64,000 nt of DNA from an uncultured Alphaproteobacteria bacterium (GTDB lineage Bacteria; Pseudomonadota; Alphaproteobacteria; Rs-D84): positions 2,413 to 66,412 of the forward strand of contig CALXLG010000004.1 of the NCBI GenBank assembly GCA_944389135.1. Reading direction: 5' to 3'. A program made the position numbers and the translations under genes. Within the stretch, counting starts at the first letter, position 1. Every line of letters starts with the position of its first letter. Below the pieces are notes generated by a model. It saw only the letters and a program-made list of their open reading frames with translations, was not told where the DNA came from and ran no database searches. This document shows positions 3,335 to 49,153 of this stretch, in pieces.

Positions 3335-3422
3335 ATTCTCTCTTAAGTTTGATTTTAACATAAAAAAAATGTTATGAAAAGACAAAAAAGCACAACCCTA
3401 TAAAAAAACACCAACAAATATA

Positions 3423-5264
3423 TTGACAAATATTTATTTTGTGATAAATATTATACCAATGGTTATACAAGATGGAAAACTTTTATTTGTTGACGAAACA
3501 GACCTTGATTCACAGGGTGCCTTATACATCCCCGAAGGTGTAATTAGTCTAGACAAGAACGTAGGAAACGCAACATTAGGTCTGCGCGCAGTATATTTTC
3601 CAAACAGCCTTAAAAAAATTGATACGCCTGTTTTTTGGGATAACCCTTATCTAGAAAAAATACATTTTGGCGATGAAACCGCAGAAATAAAAGTTGACGC
3701 TTTTTGGTGTTGCCCTAAAATCAAACATCTTCGCATCCCAGAAAAATGGGAAAATCTTGGATTTTTTTTCGAACTTAATTGTTCAAATCTAAATACCGTA
3801 ATTAGACACACCAAGTCTGGCGAAGAAGTCTATAAAATAAAAACACTTGATGGCAAACAATATTATGAAAAAGCCAACAAAACTATATTTGGATACCAGG
3901 TATTAACCTTACACCCTTTACGTTTTCATAACAGCGGCACTAATGATTATTTTGCAATTTGCACAAATAAAAACCATTTTATTTCAAAATCTCTAAGCAA
4001 CACCATACAACAAGCAAAAACATATAAAATAGAGCAAGCTTTTTCTGCCGCTTTACGTATATATGAATGCAAACACCCAGAAGCTGGCGATATATACGAA
4101 ATAAAAAAATTAATATTGATGGCTTTGCACAGAACCTTGATTCATATATCTCGGATAAACTATAAGCAAAAACGTATGTTGGCACAATATTGCAAAAACA
4201 TACCGCTATACGTAACACAGCTTCAAGAAATTTTAAGCAAATATCCACGTGCAAGGAATGATTTTTACGAATTACAAGAAATATCATTAGAAGACTTGGC
4301 AGATATAATCACGCCTCGTACAGTTGATGACATAAAAAATAAAAAATGCACCAAAAAGCTAAAGAACAAACCTGTTTCGCAAGATGAAATGACCAGAATG
4401 GTACAAGAAGGCTATAAAAACCCAGGTGCGTTTCCTTATGCATGGATAAAGCAAATCGCACCGTATCGTCGTGGGGCAGCAACGGAAAAACTACATAACG
4501 CTATTCGTAAAGCTGCAATCAAGATGTATAGCCCAGATAATTATTCTGTTGCAGGGTTAGAAAAACCGATTAGCAAACTACAAAAAGAACTAAGCAAGAT
4601 AACTCATCAACCCGTCAAAGTAGAGTTTTTATCTGCTGGTAACTTTGGAAAAACCTTTACAATTCAAATTGCAGACAGCAAAAAAGACGTTCTAAAGATA
4701 TACCACAGTAATCGTTCTTATAATTATGTACACAATTGGGGTCACGATACCGAATTACAAAACTCGTTTTTATTATCTGGAAAAAAATATAAAGGCAATA
4801 TAAAATTTAGAAAAATATCTACTGCAGGTATCAGCAACCAACGTGGTGAAAGATATTTGGTATATCCTTTTATTGATGCCCCAGAATCAGAAACCACATT
4901 TGATAAAAACACATGTTTTAAACGTATTTCATTATACGATTTTAATTCATCTGAAAATTTATTAGGCAACACAATAATAGATGCCGGTGCAATACAAATA
5001 AATAAAGATATATGGAACCTTGATAAAAATACGACAAAAATATTAAGAACCGTACTATATCAATCGTGGGATGATTTAGGTTTTGTTTTAAACAACTATA
5101 CAAACGAAGAAATAAAAACAGTAACCGATTTAATAATAAACAAATTAAAAGAAAGAATGCCAGGGAATCCAAAAACCGACAAGCAGGCTTTTAGAAATTA
5201 TAAGCAACTTAAAGCCAAGGCAGATTTTCTAAGGAATAAATTATACTCACGTGGATGCAGATAA
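3423..5264 (+). CDS. hypothetical protein with BspA-type leucine-rich-repeat-like N-terminus
   Basis: The N-terminus has repeated IPEGVxSL / IPEKWENL segments of about 23 aa, resembling BspA-type LRRs. The rest has no recognisable motif. Confidence 0.5.
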   Translation: MTNIYFVINIIPMVIQDGKLLFVDETDLDSQGALYIPEGVISLDKNVGNATLGLRAVYFPNSLKKIDTPVFWDNPYLEKIHFGDETAEIKVDAFWCCPKIKHLRIPEKWENLGFFFELNCSNLNTVIRHTKSGEEVYKIKTLDGKQYYEKANKTIFGYQVLTLHPLRFHNSGTNDYFAICTNKNHFISKSLSNTIQQAKTYKIEQAFSAALRIYECKHPEAGDIYEIKKLILMALHRTLIHISRINYKQKRMLAQYCKNIPLYVTQLQEILSKYPRARNDFYELQEISLEDLADIITPRTVDDIKNKKCTKKLKNKPVSQDEMTRMVQEGYKNPGAFPYAWIKQIAPYRRGAATEKLHNAIRKAAIKMYSPDNYSVAGLEKPISKLQKELSKITHQPVKVEFLSAGNFGKTFTIQIADSKKDVLKIYHSNRSYNYVHNWGHDTELQNSFLLSGKKYKGNIKFRKISTAGISNQRGERYLVYPFIDAPESETTFDKNTCFKRISLYDFNSSENLLGNTIIDAGAIQINKDIWNLDKNTTKILRTVLYQSWDDLGFVLNNYTNEEIKTVTDLIINKLKERMPGNPKTDKQAFRNYKQLKAKADFLRNKLYSRGCR

Positions 5265-5310: not shown

Positions 5311-8300
5311 TTATTCCATGCTGGTGGTAATAACATCACCATATACACCGAACTGTTCAGAACCGATATAACACTGCAGATGCTTACCAACTTCGTTCAT
5401 CCATTCGTCAATGGCTTCACGTTCTGCTTTATCCAACTGAGCATCCTGTACACTTTTTGTTATGTAATAGGTCAACAACCCACCACCAACACCGCCAACG
5501 ACAGAGCTAACACCTGTTGCGATTGCACGTCTTTTTGTTTCATTTTTATCCACAGTAGTCGTGGCTGTAGAATAAGCTTCATCTCTACATGCATCTGCTA
5601 ATTTATCTAATTCGGTCTTTGCTTTCGTCCTAGCTTTTGTCAGTTGATCATCTGTAACAGAACTACTATTGCTCCTTTTTTGGTCTTCAAGAGTTTTTAA
5701 AGCTGTCATTGCGTCATTGACCGTATTAATAATTGTATAAGAAACATTCAGCTCCTCTGCAACTTTGATAGCATTATCTGAATATTGCTTAGCTGTTGCA
5801 TAATTGCTATCTATATTATTTCTTGCGCTACTAGCAAGACCCGCACAATTTCCTGCACGCGCACCTAATTGTCCACTTGCAGTGTTAGCTTTTTTATTTG
5901 ATTGTAAACCGGTTAATCCACCAAAGATGTCACCTGTTGCAACAGCGTCACCAAAGAAACCGCCACCAACGCCACCACCCAGTACACCCAGTGCGGTCAT
6001 CCAACCTGCAATCTTTGGCTGCGCCTCTTTTGCGTCCTCACGGGCAGCACTGCCAACATTTGCAGAGATTTCTTCCAATACACTGGATGGTATCCAGCTG
6101 CCACATGTAAATGTATCGCCCGCTGCATAATACGCTGTTGCCCAATCGGCACCCGAACGTATCGCATCTTGGATATATTTGTCGTCTGACTGAATGTTTA
6201 TACGGATACGGCAGAACGAACCATACAAATCATTACTTGCAACGAAATCATTTGCCTGCAACCCAGATACAGTATAATTAGACGGTACCTTGTTGTTTTT
6301 CAACTTTACCCACAAGAATGTACTGCCCATATCTTTATTACCCATGATACCACCAGAATTGCTGGACATACACATATTCTGTTGTTTTGTAAGCTTTGCG
6401 TTATATTTCGCTTGTGCTTCCATTTCCAAATCTGCAATCAAATCTGTAAATATTTGCGCTTGGGCTTTGCTCTCTGCCAACTGGTCTTTTGTTACCATTT
6501 TTGCAAACATATACATACCACTTGCGTCATCACAACGCCCAGATGCACCAGAACCGTTTTGTGTTGTACACAACAAATTCCCATCTACGTCTTGGTCTTG
6601 AACCATTGTCGCAGTTGTAGATACGTTATATGTACCAGCATCTAACCAACCTTGGCGAACACTGCCGGAACTGCCCCAAGAACTTGCCGAACTTGCATTA
6701 CCAGCCTGTGCACGAGCCATTTCAGCCTTGATATGTTCTGCACAATTTGGATCGGCTTGGACTGTATTTATACACAAACCTAAAATAATTGTATGATCCA
6801 AAACACCACCGACCTTATTCATACTGGCATTAAACGCATCATCGTTCGTATTGGTCAATGATGAATATATGTCTGTACGGTTACGATAACAATTCTGATA
6901 ATCTGTACCACACTGCACTTTAACACAGTTTGTCGCAGTTAATTTGCAATTTTGTTCCATCTGGTCTAATGCACTTTGACTATAAGAAGACGCCAATCTT
7001 GCATTCAAAGATGCAACAACACCAACTGGGTCACCACCGTTATCTGCAGATGTAAACAAACGATCAAACAAGCTGTTGCCATTATTAAATATGTTGATTG
7101 TTATCGCACTACCTTCGGTTGCGTCTAATTTTGCACCAGCATATTGACATGCAATATCATTATTAACAACAGCTTCGCACTCTGATTTTATTGTTTCCAA
7201 AGTACTTGGGTTCGTAACACCTTTTACTGTATTTGAATTGTTAAAAGCAGATGCATAACACGCAGCCCCGCTACCTTCGCCACATGCCAACATTGCACAT
7301 GAAGAAATAGTTTCAGAACAACGCTTCTTCGCTTCTTCATCAAACTGTACAATCAAATCGTCAATCTTTACGCTTAATGATGCATTCATACGTTTTTCAT
7401 ATGCTTCAGAAAACATTTCTGTATGATTATCAGGATCTTGCAACTGAGATGCACTTGGCATAGCACCATTTCCAATTAACGTCGCATAACAGTACTGATT
7501 TGTACCAATAGTATCCATACACTCGTTGCTTAAAAAGTCTTTTACAGAACTTTTTGTTGTTGTCGTCGCACCGCCATTATCAGATGCGCTTTTTTCCTGC
7601 ATTTTATCTGCGGCATCTGCCAATGCAGTTGCGCTTCCTTCTTTACATCTATATGGATTGCTGGCACATGCGTTTAAGAAACATTGGTCAATAACTTTAT
7701 AACATGTAGAAACCGCGTTAACTGCCGCCAATGCCCTACCTTCAGAAATTAAAATACCAACACGACTGTCTGCCGTTGGGTTTGCAGACGTGTTTGTTGT
7801 ACCAAACAATTCTTTGATACCATCACTTTGGCAACGCGCCAAGGTTGATTCACAGAATAATTTTTGCTTCTTGAATTCGGTATCGCTTGTACACAATTCA
7901 AAATCAGAACCACAAACGTCTGATTTCTGCAAACAACTTGTATATTTCTTTACACAGTCGCTTGTATCATAACGATTGCTTATTTCAGCCGCAGAAATTA
8001 ACTGTCCCAAGACACTGCCTGCCGTTGGGTAAGTATATTCACCACTTGAATTCTTTGTTGCCAATGCGGTTTGACTGCTTGTACCAAACAAAGAGTTTAT
8101 ACCAGAAGCATTACACATTGCCAACGTACCAGAACATACCGCCTTTCTAGAAAAGAACAGCGTGTTATTTGTACATTCTTCAAAATTACTGCCACAAGCA
8201 TCGCTTCCTTTCAAGCATTCTGTGTATGCATCAATACACTCGGAGTTTTCTAATAAACTTGACGTGGTCGCCGTCGTTCCTGTTGAACTAGAAACATATG

Positions 8301-8433
8301 CGGTCATCGTCGGCATACGAGATATAGCAGTACCAACAACACTTGGACGCGCAGTCAAGGCATACGCCACAGGAACAATGCTAAAAACCGCCATAAAACC
8401 AATTGTTTTTTTAAGAAGATTCATTAGACTCAC
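5311..8433 (-). CDS. large secreted Cys-rich surface protein (1040 aa)
   Basis: Signal peptide present. Two tandem Cys6 modules (aa ~66-107 and ~160-201) with identical spacing. Gly-zipper-like segments near the C-terminus. Confidence 0.55.
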   Translation of the reverse strand: MSLMNLLKKTIGFMAVFSIVPVAYALTARPSVVGTAISRMPTMTAYVSSSTGTTATTSSLLENSECIDAYTECLKGSDACGSNFEECTNNTLFFSRKAVCSGTLAMCNASGINSLFGTSSQTALATKNSSGEYTYPTAGSVLGQLISAAEISNRYDTSDCVKKYTSCLQKSDVCGSDFELCTSDTEFKKQKLFCESTLARCQSDGIKELFGTTNTSANPTADSRVGILISEGRALAAVNAVSTCYKVIDQCFLNACASNPYRCKEGSATALADAADKMQEKSASDNGGATTTTKSSVKDFLSNECMDTIGTNQYCYATLIGNGAMPSASQLQDPDNHTEMFSEAYEKRMNASLSVKIDDLIVQFDEEAKKRCSETISSCAMLACGEGSGAACYASAFNNSNTVKGVTNPSTLETIKSECEAVVNNDIACQYAGAKLDATEGSAITINIFNNGNSLFDRLFTSADNGGDPVGVVASLNARLASSYSQSALDQMEQNCKLTATNCVKVQCGTDYQNCYRNRTDIYSSLTNTNDDAFNASMNKVGGVLDHTIILGLCINTVQADPNCAEHIKAEMARAQAGNASSASSWGSSGSVRQGWLDAGTYNVSTTATMVQDQDVDGNLLCTTQNGSGASGRCDDASGMYMFAKMVTKDQLAESKAQAQIFTDLIADLEMEAQAKYNAKLTKQQNMCMSSNSGGIMGNKDMGSTFLWVKLKNNKVPSNYTVSGLQANDFVASNDLYGSFCRIRINIQSDDKYIQDAIRSGADWATAYYAAGDTFTCGSWIPSSVLEEISANVGSAAREDAKEAQPKIAGWMTALGVLGGGVGGGFFGDAVATGDIFGGLTGLQSNKKANTASGQLGARAGNCAGLASSARNNIDSNYATAKQYSDNAIKVAEELNVSYTIINTVNDAMTALKTLEDQKRSNSSSVTDDQLTKARTKAKTELDKLADACRDEAYSTATTTVDKNETKRRAIATGVSSVVGGVGGGLLTYYITKSVQDAQLDKAEREAIDEWMNEVGKHLQCYIGSEQFGVYGDVITTSME

Positions 8434-19958: not shown

Positions 19959-19986
19959 AAAATGCCCAAATGGGCATTTTTTATTT
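19959..19986. terminator. bidirectional terminator
   Basis: Hairpin aaatgccc-aaat-gggcattt. Confidence 0.6.
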
Positions 19987-22200
19987 GATTGGTTCTAGTA
20001 CTTTTATCTCTTTCGTTTGCGGTATATATATCTTTGGAACGCCCGAATAACCCAACGCAGCGTGATGAGACGGTATTAAAAACTCTGGCAACGGACTGCA
20101 TTCACCCATCGCCATATAACTTGCCAGGCGCGGGTCATTAAATGCGTATTGTTTGTCCGCTTCTATTGGTCTGTGATACCACCCTTGGAATATTACAAGC
20201 TGTTTTTTATCATCCAATTTCATGATATCCATAGGCGAATAAAGCAATTCTTCACTGGTTTCTTCTTTATCTTTACCGTCTGGACCTTTGACAGTTTTTA
20301 CCTTCATCTTATACCCCATCATTTCAGAAAAGCGTTTTGCTGTATCTGGGTCGTTTTGACGCAAAACTATCTTTGCCGCAGTCGTAGATATAATTGTTGC
20401 AGCCGCATCCGCACCATATTTTTCCTGTATCTGATGTAAGTCCTGACCAATAATCAAATAAGATATCTTTTGACCACGTCCCAAATCAGGTCCTTGGATA
20501 ACTGCCTGCAACTTTTGCATTTTTGGCATTTCATCTAAAACAAATAGTACAGGATATGGTCCTAACTTATGTCCATTATTTATTGCCTCTGGTTTATTCG
20601 CCAACAAGAAATTACTCATCAATTCAATAAATATACCTGTTATCGGATTTAACGCCTGTGCATCAACCATATTTATTGATAGGTAAACTGTTACAGGTTT
20701 TATCTTGCCATCGCGTGGGTCTTTTAGACCACGCAAATCTTCAAAGTGAAAATCGGAATGGCTTGTTCTGTTACGAACGGCCGCATTGCGGAATATGCCA
20801 AGCCCCGCCATAATCGTTGATAAAATAGAACCACGTTCTTTATCAGGCGTGTTCGCCAGTTGCGTTAATTCAAGGATTGCACGATGCGCATATGCATAAC
20901 GACGCGCCTCGTCCACAGCATTTGTAAACAAATCTTTCATTGGGTCTGCCATCATGACCATTTGGTCACCTTGGCGACGACGCTCTTCTAATTCTTGCCC
21001 AATACTTATTTGGCTGGCATTTAACCAATCTAAAATCATTGATAAAGACGCCTCTTTACCAACCCATGCAGGTGGTATATGTTCCCATGTACCAATATGA
21101 ACATAGTTTGTTTCATTTAATTCCCCACGTTGTAATAATGCATGTGCAGCATATGCATTTGGGTCTGTCATCATTGATAAATAATAATCAGATAAAACAG
21201 CAGCATCTTCTTCGTCAAACGTACCTGACTTTATACGCGCATAGAAATAGTCATCTGCACGCGCACGTTCTACTTTTGAAACCATAAACTGAATTAAACC
21301 AGACAAACCAGCACGACCAGAAATAGTCCAGTGCGGGTCAGCAGAAGAACCGGCCGCATCAGGCACTAAAACATTACAAATTGAATCAATATACAAATCA
21401 CGTTGTTCTTGATTAAATGGTACATGTTCTGGTGACAATGGATTCCAAGACGGGTAATAAATGCCACGTTCTGGGTCATCCTGCCCAGCCCAATTCATAA
21501 TAAACACCGGACCAATTGTTGAACGATATGCAGACGATATCTGTTTAAGTTCAGGTTTTGGGTCATTAATAATCATTGATACTGTATTACAGTCAAAAAT
21601 TGTCGGCAAAACAACTCCATATGTTTTACCAGTTCCTGGGGGGGCAACACACAGCGCAGACAAGCATTCGTTCATCATAAGTGGCTTTTTCTTAAAGTAG
21701 CCAAGCACCATCATAAAGCCCTTAAACAATCCCATTTTTTCAATATCTTCTTTCGTCGCTTTATTAGACGATTTTTCTGCAAATTTATCGTTACCATATG
21801 GATTGAACTCTTTAACCAATGTGCTGTCCGCCATAAAATAATATGCAATTATCGGCAAAAGTGGTGTTATACACGCCAAGTCCGTTCGCATTACTGTACG
21901 TGTCATCCATGCAGGAATTTCTGCCAAGACAGAAAGCCCCCCACTGTACAACATATTTTGCAAATAAATACTGGTCCACTTTGCAGATGCCGGCGACCAA
22001 CCATATCGCCATATATGCTCTATGATAAAAGACAAAGCAAAAGCCAGCGCACAAACCAGCCATATTCCAATTGCCCAACGCAAAGACCAAAACAGCGATG
22101 CCATCGGCGTTCGCATATTTTCTTTATATGCGCTGGACTTGAATATATTCAAGCCTTTGGAGCTGCCACCTGCGGATAAAATCTTGAACTTCTCGACCAT
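19981..22200 (-). CDS. type IV secretion coupling protein (TraG/VirD4/DotL family ATPase)
   Basis: N-terminal TM segments, Walker A APPGTGKT, a DPKPEL box, Walker B LFVLDEMP, and a GQDLHQIQEKYG box typical of T4CPs. Confidence 0.65.
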   Translation of the reverse strand: MVEKFKILSAGGSSKGLNIFKSSAYKENMRTPMASLFWSLRWAIGIWLVCALAFALSFIIEHIWRYGWSPASAKWTSIYLQNMLYSGGLSVLAEIPAWMTRTVMRTDLACITPLLPIIAYYFMADSTLVKEFNPYGNDKFAEKSSNKATKEDIEKMGLFKGFMMVLGYFKKKPLMMNECLSALCVAPPGTGKTYGVVLPTIFDCNTVSMIINDPKPELKQISSAYRSTIGPVFIMNWAGQDDPERGIYYPSWNPLSPEHVPFNQEQRDLYIDSICNVLVPDAAGSSADPHWTISGRAGLSGLIQFMVSKVERARADDYFYARIKSGTFDEEDAAVLSDYYLSMMTDPNAYAAHALLQRGELNETNYVHIGTWEHIPPAWVGKEASLSMILDWLNASQISIGQELEERRRQGDQMVMMADPMKDLFTNAVDEARRYAYAHRAILELTQLANTPDKERGSILSTIMAGLGIFRNAAVRNRTSHSDFHFEDLRGLKDPRDGKIKPVTVYLSINMVDAQALNPITGIFIELMSNFLLANKPEAINNGHKLGPYPVLFVLDEMPKMQKLQAVIQGPDLGRGQKISYLIIGQDLHQIQEKYGADAAATIISTTAAKIVLRQNDPDTAKRFSEMMGYKMKVKTVKGPDGKDKEETSEELLYSPMDIMKLDDKKQLVIFQGWYHRPIEADKQYAFNDPRLASYMAMGECSPLPEFLIPSHHAALGYSGVPKIYIPQTKEIKVLEPIK

Positions 22201-39397: not shown

Positions 39398-40144
39398 ATG
39401 CAACTACGTTATATAACCTGCTCTGACCCACGTGAAGACACCCCTATTAAAGATATCTTGCGCCTGTCGCAAATTTTGCCAAATGTAGAAATCGCGGTGC
39501 AAGCCCACCCATCAAAAATGTCTTTTGATATGCCTAGGCGCAAATGGTTTGAAACACTTTTGAAAGAATCTTTATCCATGCCAACAGCACCAAATCTTGC
39601 CGTGCATGTAAACTTAGACTGGTGTGATAAATTCTGTCAGGGAAATCTAGCACCGGAATTAATAGACTTTTTCTTTTTACTTCGTAAAGATGGTATGCCT
39701 GCGATTCGTCGTTGGCAAATAAATATACACGGCAGTAAAACAAAATTATTTAAAACAGAAAACATTGGTAAATTAATGAAAAATTATCCTAATCGTGAAT
39801 TTATTTTTCAATATGGAGCATCTGAATACCACAGAATGCAAAGGCTTGATAAAAACGCCGCAAACTTCTCGTTATTATATGACACATCAGGTGGTGCGGG
39901 CAAACTGACAAAGAACTGGCGCGCACCTTTATTTGAGAAACATCCACAAGGTTATGCAGGTGGCCTGTCACCAGAAAATGTGGTACAAAACCTTGATAAA
40001 ATTTCAAAAGTTGCAGGCAGTCGCACAGATATATGGATTGATGCAGAAGGGAAATTAAAAACACCAGGGACAAAAACATTTGATATAAATCGTGCAAAAC
40101 AATATATAAATGCCGCCGTACGCTGGCAACAAAAACAAAAATAA
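39398..40144 (+). CDS. phosphoribosylanthranilate isomerase (TrpF)-like TIM-barrel protein
   Basis: DTSGGAGKLTKNW...GYAGGLSPENV...IWIDAEG resembles the TrpF C-terminal phosphate-binding motifs. Confidence 0.35.
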   Translation: MQLRYITCSDPREDTPIKDILRLSQILPNVEIAVQAHPSKMSFDMPRRKWFETLLKESLSMPTAPNLAVHVNLDWCDKFCQGNLAPELIDFFFLLRKDGMPAIRRWQINIHGSKTKLFKTENIGKLMKNYPNREFIFQYGASEYHRMQRLDKNAANFSLLYDTSGGAGKLTKNWRAPLFEKHPQGYAGGLSPENVVQNLDKISKVAGSRTDIWIDAEGKLKTPGTKTFDINRAKQYINAAVRWQQKQK

Positions 40145-40174
40145 AGAACCCGCAAATGCGGGTTTTACTTTTTT
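40143..40174. terminator. bidirectional terminator (acccgcaaatgcgggt hairpin)
   Basis: Perfect hairpin with a T-run. A near-identical copy lies at 40815-40846. Confidence 0.6.
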
Positions 40175-40782
40175 ACTACTTCAGGGTCTTTTTTACGCCC
40201 CCTTGTATGGGTTTTCTGATAAGCGCGTCGTTGTTTTGTTATCTCGTATAAAACAATCCCTGTCGACGTTGCTAAATTTAAACTTTCAATTATCCCATAC
40301 ATCTCTATACTAACACACGCAGCACTGCGAGAAACAGCCAAATCGCTAATACCACGCGCCTCGTTCCCGAACCATACTGCCAAACGTTTTTGCGTAAAAT
40401 CACCGTTTTGTAATATCACATTTGTTTTTCCCTTTATATGAGGCGATGTTACAATAGATACATATTTATTTTTCTCTAAGTGATTTAAGCAATCTTGCGT
40501 TGATTTAAACTTTTTAACAAAAGTCCACTTTATCGCAGAAACAGACGTCTTTAATAAAGTTTTATTATTTCTCATATTTTCCCACTCTGCAGGAATACGA
40601 TTATAGGGGTCCACAATATATAATTTCTCAACCCCCAGCGCATTAATATTTCTTATAACTGTACCAATATTTTTTAAATCACTGGGTTCTTCTAAAACAG
40701 CTATCAAATTCTTACATCTGCCGGTTTTAGCATAATTGGCTTTTTGTCTTAATCCGAATAACATACATAATCCCCTTTGCAC
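40165..40782 (-). CDS. SpoU/TrmH-family RNA 2'-O-methyltransferase
   Basis: SPOUT motifs (NIGTVIRN...LGVEKLYIV). Confidence 0.7.
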   Translation of the reverse strand: MQRGLCMLFGLRQKANYAKTGRCKNLIAVLEEPSDLKNIGTVIRNINALGVEKLYIVDPYNRIPAEWENMRNNKTLLKTSVSAIKWTFVKKFKSTQDCLNHLEKNKYVSIVTSPHIKGKTNVILQNGDFTQKRLAVWFGNEARGISDLAVSRSAACVSIEMYGIIESLNLATSTGIVLYEITKQRRAYQKTHTRGRKKDPEVVKK

Positions 40783-40814: not shown

Positions 40815-40846
40815 AAAACCCGCAAATGCGGGTTTTGTTTTATTTA
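40815..40846. terminator. bidirectional terminator (second copy of the same hairpin)
   Basis: aaaaacccgcaaatgcgggttttgtttt. Confidence 0.6.
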
Positions 40847-41487
40847 TTTGGAATAATTTTTATTTCAACACGACGATTTTGCTGGCGCCCCTCGGCCGTT
40901 GAATTAGAAGCTATTGGATTAGATGACCCCAGCCCCATAATTTCAAATCTGGACGCCTTTACACCCTGCCCTTGCAAATATGCCGCAACCGCACTTGCGC
41001 GTTGTTGCGACAAAGTCTGATTGTATTGTGCTGTACCTGTGCTGTCTGTATAGCCCAATACCATTACAGTAGAGTTATCATATTTATTCAATACTTTTGC
41101 AACAGAATTTAATGTCGCATAAAAACTTGCGTTTATATCTGACGAATCTGTCTTAAAAGTAATATTACCTGGCATAATCAAACGAATACTGTCATTATCA
41201 CGAACAACACTTACACCGGTTGAAGCCAGTTCCTGACGTAATTCAGCCTCTTGTACATCCAAATAATAACCAACACCACCACCAAGTGCAGCACCAGCCA
41301 ATCCACCAACCAATGCGCCTTTACCACTATTACCAGCAACCAAAGCCCCTGTAGCTGCACCAGTTGCAGCACCAATTGCAGTTCCCCATACTGCTTTAGA
41401 GGTTTGTGCCTCCCCCGTATAAGGATTTACTGTCGCGCATGCACTTAGCATAGAAGCAATCATTAAACCTGCTAATAATTTTTTCAT
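40840..41487 (-). CDS. OmpA-family lipoprotein with glycine-zipper region
   Basis: Lipobox MLSAC. GxxxG-rich segment. C-terminal OmpA domain (GYTDSTG...RRVEIKI). Confidence 0.7.
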   Translation of the reverse strand: MKKLLAGLMIASMLSACATVNPYTGEAQTSKAVWGTAIGAATGAATGALVAGNSGKGALVGGLAGAALGGGVGYYLDVQEAELRQELASTGVSVVRDNDSIRLIMPGNITFKTDSSDINASFYATLNSVAKVLNKYDNSTVMVLGYTDSTGTAQYNQTLSQQRASAVAAYLQGQGVKASRFEIMGLGSSNPIASNSTAEGRQQNRRVEIKIIPNK

Positions 41488-41960
41488 AAATCATTCTCCT
41501 TTCTTTTGACCATACTATTGTAATCATAATATTTAAAAATTTCAAAAAATATTATAAAAAAAGGAATCCATCCAAATAATTTACATTTTATCGTTAATGT
41601 ATAGTATCCATAATCAACACATGTATGATTCCGTTGTCTTTGGTTATACCTGTTTTATAACTTCATTATCCGCACAAATAGCAAAATCAGCAAATTATAT
41701 GATGTTATCGGAAGATTTGTACAAACACATTTTAGATGTTTTATATCTATAATTTACATTTCTGTAAATATTACAACCTATTCACAAGAATCAAGACGAT
41801 TACTCTTTAATCAGTTTACCCCCATATTATTGCTTGATTTTTTTGATATATTTATTCATACTTTTACATAGAGTCCACATGGGAAATGGGTTCGGGTCCT
41901 TCAAAAAGATCATAGTTTGTAGCAATGTGATTCTCATATTGCAATCCCGCACGGTAAAGT

Positions 41961-41982
41961 GGCGCGGAAGCGCCTTTTTATT
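41961..41982 (+). terminator. rho-independent terminator (ggcgc-GGAA-gcgcc plus U5)
   Basis: Perfect 5 bp GC stem with a GNRA-like loop and a T-run. Located inside the leader of the lipoprotein operon. Confidence 0.5.
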
Positions 41983-41986
41983 GATT

Positions 41987-42115
41987 CCCCGCCTTTGGTC
42001 GGGGAGCCGTCGGTTATAAAACAGGGCTTGCCCGAAAACTGGCGGGGTCATTTTACAAACTATGATTTTTTGAACTCCCCGACCGTCAAATTCCATTGGC
42101 GGTCTTATGTTTTTT
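41987..42115 (+). promoter_or_regulatory. candidate attenuator/riboswitch-like leader
   Basis: Terminator hairpin 42081-42104 plus U-run lies just before the ribosome-binding site. An alternative 8 bp pairing (41997-42004 ggtcgggg with 42077-42084 ccccgacc) and a local hairpin (41987-42003) give mutually exclusive structures. Confidence 0.35.
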
Positions 42116-42133
42116 AAGAAAGGAGTCGGTAAG

Positions 42134-43504
42134 ATGCAAAAATTTATGCTTTTGACTAGTATTTTAGTTTTATCTGCATGTGGAGGAGGCTCAGGTGGTA
42201 GCTCTGCCAATAGCACAACGCCACCTACTAATCCAGAAATCCCCACTGGGACAATATGGCAAGAACCAACTGTATCAGAGGATGTCGCCAACAGTAATAA
42301 GCAAATTACAAGTATGCGATCTGCAATTAGCAATTCAACCAAAGTTGTTGCATATGTAGAAGAACAACTTGAATCATTTATAGAAACAGCTTCTGTATCC
42401 CAACCTACATCGTTAAATACTACTAATCGTGCAGCTTTTACATGGATGGCACCAAGTACAGGCAACAACTTATCAAAAGATGAACAAGCACTGGAAATCT
42501 CTAAATTAAGTGAATGGTTGCTATTAGATACAACTACAGAAGAAGATATCGTAGCAGTTTTTAATCACGACAAACAAAAGTTGCATAAAGCGATGCATGT
42601 TTTAAGTAAAGGTAACAATCCATGCTTTATTGGCGGAAGTGCAACTGAAACCGCTGCTTGCTTTAAAAATACCTGGGTACAAAATAACAGCTCTGCAATT
42701 GAAGAATTTGAATCAAACGGAAAATTAGAAACGTTTAATTTAAATGATATAGATTTCAAAATGATAGAAGGTAACAAAACAGAGACTTTTGAAATAGTCG
42801 TTAACGAAAACGGAAAAATTACGGGATTGCATTTTAGAGACAAAAACAGGGAACGTATTGGTGATTCAAATGATTTTGATTTTGTTGAAATGTTAGGACC
42901 TGATGATGCCAAAGTTGAAGTTCAAGCAAAATTGTCTTATGAAAGTCACGGTAAAAACATAGGAACAAGCGGTTTAAAATATGCGGATTTTGGTTTGTTA
43001 CGTTTTAATTCCGAACAACCGGGGTTTGAATTTGAAGAAATTATGCCATATGCCGGTGGCTATGAGGCCAAACGAATAGATAAATCTGACATTGAAAATA
43101 CAGTAACATTTAATGGTCACGCAATTGGACAGGCGGGTAATACAGAATTGGCTGACGACAGCGCAACGTTGGTATTTGATAAAGCCAGTGGTGACGAGAC
43201 ATTTTCAGCTTCATTTGATAACTGGTACGACATCAATGTAGTAAAGAATGATACAGGAATCATATTTACATTCACAGGCGACGCCAAAGATGGACCAACT
43301 TTATCTACCCCGACAATAAGTACACCTGGTGGAACCAATGGTGATATAGAAATCATTGGATTTGAAACGGCATACTATGGTGATTCCAAATCTCCATCAG
43401 AAGCTACTGCGTTATTTAATTATTCACAGGATGTAAATGGTCTTGGTGGCGAAAACGCCGACTATACACATGTCAATATTAGCTTTGGTGGCAAGGCAGA
43501 ATAA
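42134..43504 (+). CDS. surface-lipoprotein candidate (TbpB/fHbp-like)
   Basis: aggag ribosome-binding site 8 nt upstream. Lipobox LSAC followed by a GGGSGGSS flexible linker. C-terminal beta-rich domain. Confidence 0.5.
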   Translation: MQKFMLLTSILVLSACGGGSGGSSANSTTPPTNPEIPTGTIWQEPTVSEDVANSNKQITSMRSAISNSTKVVAYVEEQLESFIETASVSQPTSLNTTNRAAFTWMAPSTGNNLSKDEQALEISKLSEWLLLDTTTEEDIVAVFNHDKQKLHKAMHVLSKGNNPCFIGGSATETAACFKNTWVQNNSSAIEEFESNGKLETFNLNDIDFKMIEGNKTETFEIVVNENGKITGLHFRDKNRERIGDSNDFDFVEMLGPDDAKVEVQAKLSYESHGKNIGTSGLKYADFGLLRFNSEQPGFEFEEIMPYAGGYEAKRIDKSDIENTVTFNGHAIGQAGNTELADDSATLVFDKASGDETFSASFDNWYDINVVKNDTGIIFTFTGDAKDGPTLSTPTISTPGGTNGDIEIIGFETAYYGDSKSPSEATALFNYSQDVNGLGGENADYTHVNISFGGKAE

Positions 43505-44845
43505 TTGAAACGCGGTCTTTTAATATTAATCATACTAATTCTGCCCAATGTTGTTTGGGCAGAATTAAATAAAGAAAAAGAATTTATAGTCTCCGCATTG
43601 GATGCGGTAAAACTGGCGGGAAAATTCGTTGAACATGGCGATTATGGTAATGCTTTGCAAATTCTGAACAAAATGCCCCCATTACAAAACGCCTCACTAG
43701 AAATAGAACGTTGGTTTTTATTGGCACAAATAGCATCACGAAAAAATGATTTTGATACTGCAATAGACATCTATAAAAAAATCTTAAACGCTCAACCAAA
43801 CTTAGCAAGAGTCCGTTTTGATTTAGCTGTATGTTATATGAAAATAGGTCAATGGTCGCGTGCAGATTATCATTTGCGATTGGCAATGTCAGGAAAAGAT
43901 TTACCAAACAACATCAAAAATTTGATGAATTACTATCGCTATATAATTCGTCAAAATAAAAATTGGAATATTTGGTTTAATTTCGGGGCCGCACCAGATA
44001 ATAATATAAACTCATCTGTTGGTGGCGAAGAGTGCGTGATGACGATGTTCGGAAAAATGTGTCGCCAATTACCCGATCCTGTTTCTGCAATAGGGTTTAA
44101 CTTTTCTGGTGGCGGAGATTATGAATTTAAACTATCTGACCAATGGCGATGGAAATCAAATACCGATATTTATACAAATGTATATAATCAACACAATTTC
44201 GATGACTTATATCTATCTTTTGGCACGGGGCTACGATACATATGGTCGCGAGGTGATGTGGGGCTGACTACAATCGGTGCAAGGCGATGGTATGGTTGGG
44301 AAGAATATAATTGGTCTTTGGGGGCAAAATTAGATACGAATTATGATTTCAATCGCAAGTTATCGGGTAGTTTGCATTTTAGATTTATGAATAATTTCTA
44401 CGATGATTTCGGCGAATATCTAGATGGGCAGACATATAGCGCAACAGCTAGATTATTTTATTCTCTGAATTCATCTATGTATCTATCACTACGTAGCGGA
44501 ATTGAACGCGAAACTACTAAAATTTCTTTGTATTCTAATTGGCGTCCCAGTGCAGCAATTGGATTTGGTGCCGAATTACCATACGGGATACATATTTATT
44601 TAGAGCCGAGTATCTACATGGCATTCTATGATGCGCCAAGGTGGACTATACAAAACGACAAATTTTCACAAATTATAGAACATAGTTATACAACTCGATA
44701 TGCGATATCTATATCAAATAATAAATTAGATATATGGGGTTTTGTTCCAACGTTGACGTTCAGTTATACAAAACGAGAATCTAATATATGGCAAAGGGAA
44801 TACAATAAAACCGCCATTGAATTTAGTATGCAACAGCGGTTTTAA
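43505..44845 (+). CDS. TPR plus C-terminal beta-barrel outer-membrane protein (Slam/DUF560-like)
   Basis: TTG start immediately after the upstream stop. Signal peptide, then an N-terminal TPR region, then a beta-barrel ending ...MQQRF. Confidence 0.5.
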   Translation: MKRGLLILIILILPNVVWAELNKEKEFIVSALDAVKLAGKFVEHGDYGNALQILNKMPPLQNASLEIERWFLLAQIASRKNDFDTAIDIYKKILNAQPNLARVRFDLAVCYMKIGQWSRADYHLRLAMSGKDLPNNIKNLMNYYRYIIRQNKNWNIWFNFGAAPDNNINSSVGGEECVMTMFGKMCRQLPDPVSAIGFNFSGGGDYEFKLSDQWRWKSNTDIYTNVYNQHNFDDLYLSFGTGLRYIWSRGDVGLTTIGARRWYGWEEYNWSLGAKLDTNYDFNRKLSGSLHFRFMNNFYDDFGEYLDGQTYSATARLFYSLNSSMYLSLRSGIERETTKISLYSNWRPSAAIGFGAELPYGIHIYLEPSIYMAFYDAPRWTIQNDKFSQIIEHSYTTRYAISISNNKLDIWGFVPTLTFSYTKRESNIWQREYNKTAIEFSMQQRF

Positions 44846-45370: not shown

Positions 45371-45393
45371 CAATGCATCAAAAAAGCCCACAG
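45371..45393 (-). terminator. rho-independent terminator on the minus strand
   Basis: Hairpin gcccgc-tgtctgt-gggc followed by a T-run on the minus strand. Confidence 0.45.
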
Positions 45394-45459
45394 ACAGCGG
45401 GCTTTGTATGGTATACCTTAATCATACCGTAATTCTGGTGGATGCCATGGGACTGCTGC

Positions 45460-45645
45460 GCCACCTTGCAAAATCGCCCGTTGGGCGTATTTATGCGGTG
45501 CGGCTCCCTCGCACGGCGTTGTCACGCCGGCTGCGGGGCATTCCTGACGGCTCGATTACGCTTGACGCTTATCTCGCCTAGTCATTGTCAAACCCCTTAC
45601 TTCGGGGGTTTTCGTCCCACATCCCCATGCACAAAATAAAATCGC
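45460..45645. repeat. GC-rich hairpin cluster with an exact 18-nt duplicated hairpin (aaaatcgcccgttgggcg)
   Basis: Copies at 45460-45477 and 45628-45645. A further hairpin (aaacccc-ttacttc-gggggttt) lies at 45589-45610. GC content is far above the surrounding DNA. Confidence 0.5.
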
Positions 45646-48505: not shown

Positions 48506-48871
48506 ATGAAAAAAATAAAAAAGTTATTGTCCGCATTTATCATTTGCAGCATATGTACAAGCTATTCTTATGCCGCTAATTTAACTTGTAATAACTTAAG
48601 CCTTTGTCGAGTAAAATGCTTAACAACTTTTCCGGACGGATATTGCTGTACAGCTTTAGGAAATCAAGGAACTAGTACCACATGTCCAACAGGCTGGTCT
48701 CTTAATTACCAAGGCATATGTTCTAGGAATCCAACGGAAGAGGCTGATTCTATTGGATACTATACACAAACATATTCATCTTGTAGTCCTACAACCACTT
48801 ACTATGATTGTTACTACAACCAACCTAACAGTGTTATTGGAGAGACTTGCGTAAAATGCGGGCATATGTAA
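48506..48871 (+). CDS. small secreted Cys-rich protein (12 Cys)
   Basis: Signal peptide. Many Cys with YY motifs. Confidence 0.5.
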   Translation: MKKIKKLLSAFIICSICTSYSYAANLTCNNLSLCRVKCLTTFPDGYCCTALGNQGTSTTCPTGWSLNYQGICSRNPTEEADSIGYYTQTYSSCSPTTTYYDCYYNQPNSVIGETCVKCGHM

Positions 48872-49153
48872 ATGAAAAAAATTATACTTTTACTTTTTAT
48901 TGTATTTAGTGTTACATCTGCATTTGGTGCATGTGCGCCCCTTTCAAAAACATATACTGCATGCAAACCTGGTTATTATTTAGAAAACGGACAATGTAAA
49001 AGATGTCCTGATGTTAACGGGGTTTACGGAACAACAGTTGATAGAAATACAGGTGATATAAACTCTTGTTATTTGCCAAACGGCACAACAGGAAGTAATA
49101 CTTACGGCAGTTATGATATAGTAGGAAGTTGCTATATATATCCGCAGCAATAA
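48872..49153 (+). CDS. small secreted Cys-rich protein, likely a paralog of the upstream gene
   Basis: ATG immediately after the upstream stop. Signal peptide. CKPGYY...CKRC pattern. Confidence 0.5.
   Translation: MKKIILLLFIVFSVTSAFGACAPLSKTYTACKPGYYLENGQCKRCPDVNGVYGTTVDRNTGDINSCYLPNGTTGSNTYGSYDIVGSCYIYPQQ

What the first reader, a model, noticed from the sequence alone, without database searches (positions are those of the whole stretch)
42134..44845. Surface-lipoprotein plus Slam-like (TPR plus beta-barrel) two-gene module
Gene 1 encodes a lipoprotein (lipobox LSAC) whose mature N-terminus is a GGGSGGSS flexible tether followed by beta-rich domains. This is the architecture of TbpB, LbpB and fHbp surface lipoproteins. 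Gene 2 starts with TTG immediately after the stop of gene 1. It encodes a signal peptide, a TPR-like periplasmic domain of ~150 aa and a ~290 aa beta-barrel ending in ...QQRF. That is the Slam/DUF560 architecture. Slam-dependent surface lipoprotein display is characterised mainly in Neisseria, Moraxella and Pasteurellaceae. A coupled pair in this low-GC, alphaproteobacteria-like genome would extend the system and offers a candidate surface receptor, for example for host nutrient capture.
Basis: partly seen in the sequence, partly recalled or inferred. Interest (0 to 1): 0.7.

Follow-up and report, generated by a model that had tools for sequence, protein, structure and literature searches.

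The report
Slam translocon plus surface-lipoprotein cargo
This is a two-gene operon from an uncultured gut alphaproteobacterium that encodes an outer-membrane "Slam" (type 11 secretion) pore and the lipoprotein it most likely flips onto the cell surface; it is a real but expected example of a known system, and it sits behind an unusual structured RNA leader.

Summary

One correction is needed. A variable α-helical domain of about 130-150 aa lies between the tether and the β-domains.

The pairing recurs in 8 of 10 relatives sampled, in different neighbourhoods. The cargo diverges much faster than the Slam (24-30% versus 46-65% identity).

The claim that this extends the system is overstated. 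Slams were already reported in all proteobacterial classes, and NCBI already names a 65%-identical homologue a Slam. No TonB-dependent receptor lies nearby, so nutrient capture is unsupported and the ligand is unknown.

The most interesting extra is the operon's leader RNA. It is about 240 nt long, supported by covariation, ends in a terminator, and is a sub-threshold relative of sRNA-Xcc1. At least 67 copies occur in metagenomes upstream of diverse surface and accessory genes.

The parts
41879..41993 (+). 5' domain of the structured leader RNA. It holds hairpins and a C-rich box (TTCCCCGCC, 41985-41993) that can pair with the P1 5' strand or with GGCGGGG further downstream.
   Evidence: This stretch is conserved with L014 and L011 and, in the main subfamily, with 34 metagenome copies. 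RNAalifold gives 34 pairs, 10 of them with compensatory changes. The window belongs to a variant subfamily of this domain. The whole leader folds with z = -6.3.
41994..42119 (+). Core of the leader RNA (sRNA-Xcc1-like multi-stem element: P1 GGTCGGGGAG/CTCCCCGACC, plus P2 and P3) together with the intrinsic terminator.
   Evidence: The Rfam RF02221 hit covers 41997-42092 at 37.7 bits, below the gathering score of 53. My own model R1 scores 103 bits. In the alignment 99.4% of cells are paired, and 61 cells have double-sided changes against 12.9 in shuffles (0 of 500 shuffles reach it).
42081..42115 (+). Terminator hairpin GACCGTCA...TGGCGGTC followed by a T-rich run. Its 5' arm reuses the last four bases (GACC) of the P1 3' strand.
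   Evidence: The terminator scan finds it. The stem covaries across 51 copies. The overlap with P1 is read directly from the sequence.
42120..42125 (+). Shine-Dalgarno sequence AAGGAG for gene 1.
   Evidence: Read from the sequence; it lies 8 nt before ATG 42134.
42134..43504 (+). Gene 1: the surface-lipoprotein cargo (456 aa). It belongs to a family with no Pfam annotation.
   Evidence: ORF. No Pfam family matches it. It has 61 homologues in one library and 736 representatives at the 50% level in another. The AF2 model has pLDDT 85.3 and pTM 0.80.
42134..42181 (+). Lipoprotein signal peptide and lipobox L-S-A-C (Cys16).
   Evidence: Read from the sequence; A15 and C16 are invariant in 45 homologues.
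42182..42274 (+). Gly/Ser/Pro-rich disordered tether (residues 17-47).
   Evidence: pLDDT is below 50 for residues 1-37. Mean identity across the family is 0.22, with many gaps.
42275..42718 (+). Conserved SN..ITSM segment (residues 48-67) followed by a variable alpha-helical 'effector' domain (residues ~68-195).
   Evidence: DSSP shows helices at 49-195. This is the least conserved domain (identity 0.20). It is absent from the short-form relatives, which match only profile positions ~155-443.
42719..43501 (+). Beta 'handle' plus C-terminal beta-barrel (residues 196-456), with the TbpB-C-lobe fold. This is the presumed Slam-targeting domain.
43505..44845 (+). Gene 2: Slam / type 11 secretion outer-membrane protein (446 aa, TTG start abutting gene 1's stop codon).
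   Evidence: Pfam PF04575 SlipAM matches at E = 1.6e-32 and 113.6 bits over profile positions 1-288/288. It has 561 homologues, some named Slam by NCBI. The AF2 model has pLDDT 86.3.
43595..43954 (+). Periplasmic TPR domain of Slam (residues 31-150, seven helices).
   Evidence: TPR_19 scores 33.9 bits and TPR_2 27.8 bits, both above their cut-offs. TPR_Slam scores 30.5 bits, below its cut-off of 35.2. DSSP shows the helices.
43964..44842 (+). Slam beta-barrel (residues 154-446). It has 14 long strands plus a short Cys-containing hairpin at residues 174-189, and ends in ...QQRF.
41566..41678 (-). Decayed second copy of the leader RNA, facing the OmpA-family lipoprotein gene (40840-41487, minus strand).
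   Evidence: R1 scores 23.1 bits. The conserved loops are retained but P1 is broken.

Best explanation
The region is a two-gene operon for a type 11 secretion (Slam) system and its own cargo.

Shown here:
- Gene 1 encodes a lipoprotein precursor with a TbpB-C-lobe-type handle and barrel at its C-terminus.
- Gene 2 encodes a Slam: signal peptide, periplasmic TPR domain and a 14-stranded DUF560 barrel.
- The two genes abut with no gap, and the pairing is conserved in distant relatives.

Inferred from what is established for Neisseria and Moraxella Slam1/TbpB (PMC9090332, PMC5449769):
- It is kept unfolded in the periplasm, with Skp as the chaperone in the studied systems.
- Slam recognises it through the conserved C-terminal barrel domain and threads it to the outer leaflet, where it folds.
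- The fast-evolving alpha-helical head would then be held away from the surface on a ~30-residue Gly/Ser/Pro tether.

The pair stands alone, with no TonB-dependent receptor next to it, and the head domain is the most variable part. The cargo is therefore more likely a binding protein for a host or environmental ligand (an adhesin or host-factor binder, as with fHbp or PmSLP) than a TbpB-type nutrient receptor. The ligand is unknown.

Transcription enters the operon through a ~240-nt structured leader that ends in an intrinsic terminator. That terminator competes with the leader's P1 stem, so expression is probably conditional (attenuation). This last step is inferred from anatomy and covariation only.
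For: Gene 2:
- Pfam SlipAM matches over the full profile at 113.6 bits against a cut-off of 22.
- The model has seven TPR-type helices and 14 long strands.
- NCBI names homologues 'surface lipoprotein assembly modifier'.

Gene 1:
- The lipobox is invariant in the family, and the model is confident.

Pairing:
- An SLP-family gene is directly followed by a Slam gene in the window and its strain relatives L001-L006, and in L007, L008 (two SLPs), L010, L036 and L056. L012/13 and L014/15 show a partial Slam N-terminus at the contig end. The flanking genes differ among L007, L008 and L010.

Divergence:
- Cargo identity is 30, 28 and 24%, against 65, 60 and 46% for the partner Slam.
- Within the cargo, the barrel is the most conserved mature part (0.36) and the helical head the least (0.20).
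- This matches the published cargo scheme of a variable N-terminal effector and a conserved C-terminal barrel (PMC12282271).

Leader.
Against: - Nothing here shows surface exposure or dependence on Slam. Those steps are transferred from other bacteria.
- The cargo has no detectable sequence similarity to any known cargo family. It has no Pfam hit, its profile finds nothing in the PDB, and hhalign against fHbp gives a probability of 0.6%. Homology therefore rests on a predicted fold.
- Two relatives (L009, L011; short forms or C-terminal-only matches) have no adjacent Slam.
- The strand counts come from AlphaFold models, not from solved structures.
- The ligand or function of the helical head is a guess from context.
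- The 86%-identical orthologue in L012 lacks the leader, so the leader is not needed for the module as such.
Confidence: 0.85

Rival explanations
1. The module is a nutrient-piracy system of the TbpB or haemophilin kind. In this reading the cargo captures a host metal, haem or iron carrier. It would stay on the surface or be released like HphA/HrpC, and would hand its ligand to a TonB-dependent receptor encoded elsewhere in the genome.
For: The fold is shared with TbpB, LbpB, HpuA and the haemophilins HphA/Hpl. Cluster-1 T11SS genes often co-occur with TonB and TonB-dependent receptors (PMC8406197). The organism lives in animal guts.
Against: No TonB-dependent receptor was found among the large ORFs of the 64-kb window, nor among the called genes next to the pairs in L007, L008 and L010. 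The protein is single-lobed and has a helical head in place of the TbpB N-lobe or the haemophilin haem pocket. The lipobox is invariant, which argues for anchoring over release.
Confidence: 0.15
2. The adjacency has no functional meaning. Gene 1 would be an ordinary periplasm-facing outer-membrane lipoprotein, and gene 2 would be a Slam serving some other cargo.
For: Some relatives of gene 1 have no Slam next to them (L009, L011). In Neisseria, Slam1 serves cargo encoded elsewhere in the genome (my own knowledge).
Against: The start codon of gene 2 abuts the stop codon of gene 1. The same gene order recurs in 8 of 10 relatives sampled, down to 24% cargo identity and in unrelated neighbourhoods. 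The fold matches only known Slam cargo. The window holds only one Slam and one such lipoprotein.
Confidence: 0.05
3. Gene 2 is a TPR-plus-barrel exopolysaccharide export porin of the PgaA or BcsC type, not a protein translocon.
Against: Those weak matches cover only the TPR region (residues 17-126). The barrel matches SlipAM over the full profile. The model has 14 long strands, whereas these porins have 16 (my own knowledge), and 14-stranded barrels score higher. The neighbours listed include no gene recognisable as a pga or bcs synthase.
Confidence: 0.02

Closest known systems
PmSLP (PM1514, factor-I-binding fIbp) with its adjacent Slam (PM1515) of Pasteurella multocida
   Different: There is no sequence similarity. 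The cargo here carries an extra ~130-150-aa alpha-helical head and a conserved SN..ITSM segment, and its ligand is unknown. The organism is an uncultured gut alphaproteobacterium, not a pasteurellacean pathogen.
TbpB with Slam1 (Neisseria, Moraxella, Haemophilus)
   Different: TbpB has two lobes, binds transferrin and works with the TonB-dependent receptor TbpA. The protein here has one lobe, a helical head and no receptor gene nearby. The Pfam TbpB_B_D signature is absent.
Haemophilin-type soluble cargo with T11SS (HphA/HsmA of Acinetobacter, HrpC/HrpB of Xenorhabdus)
   Different: Those cargos are secreted soluble haem binders whose loci also encode TonB and a receptor. The cargo here has an invariant lipobox and no receptor in the locus.
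fHbp (factor H binding protein) of Neisseria meningitidis
   Different: Its N-terminal domain is beta, not helical. No sequence relation is detectable (hhalign probability 0.6%).
sRNA-Xcc1 (Rfam RF02221), compared with the leader RNA only
   Same: Both have an outer stem, an AUA(A/C)AA junction, a small GNRA-type hairpin and a second hairpin. Detection is reciprocal: Rfam's model scores 37.7 bits on the window, and my model scores 42.9, 29.4 and 17.9 bits on three genuine Xcc1 copies. Genuine Xcc1 also lies just upstream of an accessory gene in the same orientation (BRO-family, symE, ORF6N).
   Different: The score is below Rfam's gathering threshold of 53 bits. The element here carries an additional ~115-nt 5' domain and a built-in terminator. 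Xcc1 was described as a trans-acting sRNA in Xanthomonas.

Membership tests
Slam / type 11 secretion system outer-membrane protein (Pfam PF04575 SlipAM, formerly DUF560) | C-terminal DUF560/SlipAM domain scoring above Pfam's gathering threshold | tested here: met
   It scores 113.6 bits against a cut-off of 22, E = 1.6e-32, with profile positions 1-288/288 aligned to residues 154-446.
Slam / type 11 secretion system outer-membrane protein (Pfam PF04575 SlipAM, formerly DUF560) | N-terminal periplasmic tetratricopeptide-repeat domain | tested here: met
   TPR_19 scores 33.9 bits (cut-off 25) and TPR_2 27.8 bits (cut-off 27). The specific TPR_Slam model scores 30.5 bits, just below its cut-off of 35.2. 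The model has seven helices at residues 31-150.
Slam / type 11 secretion system outer-membrane protein (Pfam PF04575 SlipAM, formerly DUF560) | 14-stranded beta-barrel | tested here: met
Slam / type 11 secretion system outer-membrane protein (Pfam PF04575 SlipAM, formerly DUF560) | Sec signal peptide and a C-terminal aromatic residue typical of outer-membrane barrels | tested here: met
   The N-terminus reads MKRGLLILIILILPNVVWA/E and the C-terminus ...MQQRF. F446 is invariant in 41 homologues.
Slam / type 11 secretion system outer-membrane protein (Pfam PF04575 SlipAM, formerly DUF560) | Required for surface display or secretion of a cargo protein | not testable with these tools
   This needs co-expression and protease-shaving or flow-cytometry assays.
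Slam-dependent surface lipoprotein / T11SS cargo (TbpB-like handle plus barrel) | Signal peptide with lipobox (for the lipidated class) | tested here: met
   The lipobox is LSAC with Cys16, and A15 and C16 are invariant in 45 homologues.
Slam-dependent surface lipoprotein / T11SS cargo (TbpB-like handle plus barrel) | C-terminal 8-stranded beta-barrel preceded by a beta 'handle' or pedestal | tested here: met
Slam-dependent surface lipoprotein / T11SS cargo (TbpB-like handle plus barrel) | Sequence signature of a known cargo domain (Pfam TbpB_B_D or the fHbp 'lipoprotein C' domain) | tested here: not met
   No Pfam family matches gene 1 or the 10 divergent relatives tested. The family profile finds no cargo in the PDB. 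hhalign against fHbp gives a probability of 0.6%. Membership is therefore structural, not by sequence family.
Slam-dependent surface lipoprotein / T11SS cargo (TbpB-like handle plus barrel) | Encoded next to a Slam gene | tested here: met
   The stop and start codons abut. Adjacency holds in 8 of 10 relatives sampled.
Slam-dependent surface lipoprotein / T11SS cargo (TbpB-like handle plus barrel) | Exposed on the cell surface in a Slam-dependent way | not testable with these tools
   This needs an experiment.
TbpB/LbpB proper (bilobed transferrin- or lactoferrin-binding proteins) | Two handle-plus-barrel lobes and a partner TonB-dependent receptor gene | tested here: not met
   There is one beta lobe behind a helical domain. 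No receptor gene was found among the large ORFs of the window.
PgaA/BcsC-type polysaccharide export porins | Family model match over the barrel, and a 16-stranded barrel | tested here: not met
   TIGR03939 and NF008520 match only residues 17-126 (the TPR region) at E ~0.08. The model has 14 strands.
sRNA-Xcc1 (Rfam RF02221), for the leader RNA | Covariance-model score at or above the gathering threshold (53 bits) | tested here: not met
   The score is 37.7 bits in the window and 37.8 bits in L014. Genuine copies score 68.8-72.6 bits.
sRNA-Xcc1 (Rfam RF02221), for the leader RNA | Shared secondary structure and conserved junction sequence | tested here: met
   The full model aligns (positions 1-87/87) with all stems formed. 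A model built only from the metagenome leaders finds three genuine Xcc1 copies at the same coordinates (42.9, 29.4 and 17.9 bits).

The most novel reading that the evidence does not exclude
The SLP-Slam operon may be switched on and off by a previously undescribed attenuator-type leader RNA. The leader is about 240 nt long and is an extended relative of sRNA-Xcc1. The same leader precedes dozens of other surface-protein genes (autotransporter, OMP barrel, Big_2, repeat proteins, lipoproteins) and accessory genes (restriction-modification, polysaccharide synthesis) in gut, rumen and termite-gut Alphaproteobacteria. If this is right, Xcc1-class RNAs are portable cis-acting leaders (a riboswitch for a global signal, or the target of an antiterminator protein) that co-ordinate a variable surface proteome, and not only trans-acting sRNAs. 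The cargo's fast-evolving helical head would then be a new host-ligand-binding effector domain of T11SS cargo.
Probability: 0.3. Interest if true: 0.7.

Novelty: new member of a known kind. Interest (0 to 1): 0.42.

Why it matters
The Slam/T11SS pathway is one of the few known routes that place lipoproteins on the outside of Gram-negative bacteria. All experimentally verified cases come from animal-associated Beta- and Gammaproteobacteria.

This locus adds a clean, conserved cargo-translocon pair from an abundant but uncultured group of gut Alphaproteobacteria. The cargo family is large (736 representatives at the 50% identity level), invisible to sequence-based annotation, and carries a new variable helical head.

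Practical uses:
- The C-terminal barrel profile built here can be used to annotate hundreds of 'hypothetical' gut-commensal surface proteins.
- The pair is small enough to test directly in E. coli.

The leader RNA matters more if it holds up. It would give a handle on how these bacteria regulate their variable surface proteins, and it would reinterpret the sRNA-Xcc1 family.

Tried and rejected
- Cobalamin or another known riboswitch in the leader: rejected. Rfam at gathering thresholds finds only a tRNA in the window. The permissive scan finds only the sub-threshold Xcc1 hit.
- Leader as a remnant of the 250-aa gene that occupies this position in L012: rejected. That gene is a relocated paralogue of window 39398-40144 (45% identity) and has no match in the leader.
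- Leader as a ligand-specific riboswitch tied to the SLP: rejected. The genes downstream of its 67 metagenome copies are very diverse.
- Leader as an obligatory part of the module: rejected. It is absent upstream of the SLP genes in L007, L008, L010 and L012.
- Within-species comparison of substitution load in gene 1 versus gene 2 across L001-L006: uninformative. Those loci were retrieved by exact identity to gene 2.
- Sequence bridges from gene 1 to known cargo: all negative.
- The genome-contig scan with the gene 1 alignment was wasted. The tool chose the lipobox as its search pattern and returned a single locus.
- The afdb50 fold library was unavailable, so the Slam model could not be compared with predicted Slam structures.
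- Search for a partner TonB-dependent receptor among the large ORFs of the window: none found.
- Signal-peptide enrichment among leader-associated genes: 24 of 42 against 18 of 57 window genes. The heuristic is crude and the result only suggestive.
Full report
OBSERVATION. Both open reading frames are present exactly as described. Gene 1 is best started at ATG 42134. An AAGGAG sits 8 nt upstream, and the earlier in-frame ATG at 42107 lies inside a terminator T-run. Gene 1 ends at TAA 43502-43504. Its product begins MQKFMLLTSILVLSAC-GGGSGGSS. The lipobox Ala15-Cys16 is invariant in an alignment of 45 homologues. Gene 2 begins with TTG at 43505, the base after gene 1's stop codon, and ends at 44845 with ...MQQRF. 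One detail needs correcting: the lipoprotein does not run from the tether directly into beta-rich domains. The AlphaFold model (pLDDT 85.3, pTM 0.80) has a disordered stretch at residues 1-37 and an alpha-helical domain at residues ~49-195. Only after that comes an all-beta region, at 200-455.

THE PAIRING IS CONSERVED AND THE CARGO EVOLVES FASTER. An SLP-family gene is directly followed by a SlipAM gene in seven further lineages besides the window and its strain relatives L001-L006. These are L007, L008 (two tandem SLPs, then Slam), L010, L036 and L056, plus L012/13 and L014/15, where the contig ends inside the Slam N-terminus. The surrounding genes differ among L007, L008 and L010. Two short or partial relatives (L009, L011) have no Slam next to them. 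Across pairs the cargo has diverged to 30, 28 and 24% identity while its Slam partner stays at 65, 60 and 46%. A within-species comparison was uninformative, because those loci were retrieved by identity to gene 2.

CONTEXT. The window comes from an uncultured, ~37% GC bacterium. Its relatives are labelled 'Alphaproteobacteria bacterium' MAGs, and at least one related locus (L056) comes from a record titled 'human gut metagenome'. The pair sits among housekeeping genes: LptF/G, LptD, a SurA-like gene, RlmN and an OmpA-family lipoprotein on one side, and tRNA-Val, YbaB, PNPase, S15, TruB and MutS on the other. It is not on an obvious island. The window contains only one such lipoprotein and one Slam. 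None of its large envelope ORFs is a TonB-dependent receptor.

MECHANISM. What is shown: the two domain architectures, the translationally abutting genes, the conserved pairing and the pattern of divergence. What is transferred from the literature: SLPs are exported by Sec, lipidated, and passed by Lol to the outer membrane. Slam1 is an autonomous outer-membrane translocon that moves unfolded TbpB across the bilayer, helped by the chaperone Skp (PMC9090332). All predicted Slam-dependent SLPs share an 8-stranded barrel (PMC5449769). My inference is that the conserved C-terminal barrel is the targeting domain and the variable helical head on its ~30-residue tether is the exposed functional end. 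The pair stands alone, like PmSLP/Slam and unlike TbpB/TbpA or the hrp/hph loci. I therefore favour a ligand-binding or adhesive role towards host or environmental molecules over nutrient piracy. This is the weakest step in the argument.

- The ~640-bp gap upstream of gene 1 contains a strongly structured stretch (41880-42140: -103.6 kcal/mol, z = -6.3).
- Rfam gives a sub-threshold sRNA-Xcc1 match at 41997-42092 (37.7 bits, gathering score 53). The same match recurs upstream of the 65%-identical homologue in L014, where it shows that the 518-aa gene call is over-extended at its 5' end. The layout also recurs upstream of a 29%-identical short-form homologue in L011.
- A degenerate pattern from the core found 67 metagenome loci. 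I estimated that about one would be expected by chance.
- The conserved element is ~230-250 nt long. For the core, 99.4% of cells are paired. There are 61 double-sided compensatory changes, against 12.9 +/- 2.8 in shuffles (0 of 500 reach the observed value) and 5-21 in slid controls. The 5' domain adds 34 pairs, 10 of them with compensatory changes. Frequent G-U pairs in P1 would be A-C mismatches on the other strand, so the element works as RNA in the sense of the downstream gene.
- It ends in a covarying hairpin plus T-run directly before the ribosome-binding site. The 5' arm of that terminator reuses the last four bases of the P1 3' strand. An upstream C-rich box (TCCCTGAC in most copies) can pair with the P1 5' strand. 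This gives four segments with 1:2, 2:3 and 3:4 pairing options, which is the logic of a transcription attenuator.
- The downstream genes are diverse: an autotransporter with PMP repeats, an OMP barrel, a Big_2 protein, a Listeria-Bacteroides-repeat protein and lipoproteins, but also a C5 DNA methylase, a type III restriction subunit and an RgpF-type rhamnan-synthesis gene. A crude signal-peptide heuristic gives 24 of 42, against 18 of 57 for the window's own genes.
- The element is not required for the module. It is absent upstream of the SLP genes in L007, L008, L010 and L012.
- Its kinship with Xcc1 is reciprocal. A model built only from the metagenome copies detects three genuine Xcc1 copies (Rfam 68.8-72.6 bits) at 42.9, 29.4 and 17.9 bits. 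Genuine Xcc1 also lies just upstream of an accessory gene in the same orientation: a BRO-family CDS 41 nt downstream in a Pseudomonas plasmid, and symE and ORF6N genes in the literature.
- Whether the leader senses a small molecule, binds a protein or is released as an sRNA cannot be decided here.

COMPARISON WITH WHAT IS KNOWN, AND NOVELTY. The module is a member of the Slam/T11SS kind. Every defining feature that can be tested in silico is met for gene 2. For gene 1 all are met except a sequence signature of a known cargo domain. It is not a TbpB or LbpB orthologue: it has one lobe and no receptor gene nearby. The taxonomic 'extension' is not new. Slams were reported in all classes of Proteobacteria. 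Sphingomonadaceae form T11SS subcluster 1C, with their own cargo architecture. Public annotation already names the close homologues. What is new is modest: a large, fast-evolving cargo family with no Pfam annotation and a helical head, in uncultured gut Alphaproteobacteria. I rate it 'new member of a known kind', with interest 0.42. The main finding is worth about 0.35, and the leader RNA raises it. The leader is the one element here that a specialist might find surprising.

Noticed in passing
window 41879-42119 (+); also L011 ~82-321, L014 3680-3919 and L016-L082: A structured leader RNA of ~240 nt, supported by covariation, ends in an intrinsic terminator directly before gene 1's ribosome-binding site. 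It is a sub-threshold relative of sRNA-Xcc1 (37.7 bits against a gathering score of 53), and detection is reciprocal. Its core matches 67 metagenome loci, upstream of diverse surface-protein, restriction-modification and polysaccharide genes. The layout suggests an attenuator or riboswitch-like switch.
   Followed up: partly
window 41566-41678 (-): A decayed second copy of the same leader points the other way, towards the OmpA-family lipoprotein gene (40840-41487). The conserved loops are kept but the P1 stem is broken (R1 23.1 bits). Strain L006 lacks window 41589-41748, which removes most of it.
   Followed up: partly
window ~45381-45635 (-): A GC-rich stretch (50-66% in a 37% GC genome) lies between tRNA-Val and the 3' end of gene 2. 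It ends in a strong minus-strand terminator (GCCCGCUGUCUGUGGGC plus U6). It folds at -105.5 kcal/mol (z = -4.25) and matches no Rfam family. It is a candidate unannotated structured small RNA.
   Followed up: partly
L014 3729-5285 and window 42107-43504: Automatic gene calls for the lipoprotein are over-extended at the 5' end. The 518-aa call in L014 runs through the leader RNA. In the window, the 465-aa ORF from ATG 42107 starts inside the terminator T-run. The start at 42134 (MQKF...) has the Shine-Dalgarno sequence.
   Followed up: yes
window 39398-40782; compare L002, L005, L006, L012: There is a strain-level gene-content difference next to the module. The 248-aa gene of unknown function and the SpoU-type methyltransferase gene between RlmN and the OmpA-family gene are absent in L002, L005 and L006. 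In L012 a 45%-identical paralogue of the 248-aa gene sits instead between the OmpA-family gene and the lipoprotein gene, where this window has the leader RNA.
   Followed up: partly
L008 4605-7722: One relative carries two tandem lipoprotein genes of this family (462 and 573 aa) in front of a single Slam gene. This suggests cargo duplication and diversification behind one translocon.
   Followed up: no
L083 1485-1570 and 1820-2707; L084 1498-1580 and 1618-2127: Genuine sRNA-Xcc1 copies in Neisseria gonorrhoeae and on a Pseudomonas aeruginosa plasmid lie just upstream of, and in the same orientation as, a protein-coding gene. In Pseudomonas it is an annotated BRO-family CDS; in Neisseria it is an unannotated 295-aa ORF that looks KilA-N-like to me. 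This fits a cis-acting leader role for the Xcc1 family.
   Followed up: partly
window 19981-22200 (-), 3423-5264 (+), 48506-49153 (+): The window also encodes a type IV secretion coupling protein (TraG/VirD4-type), a BspA-type leucine-rich-repeat protein, and two small Cys-rich secreted proteins with no family match. Two large signal-peptide proteins (1385-3385 and 5311-8433) have no Pfam hit.
   Followed up: no
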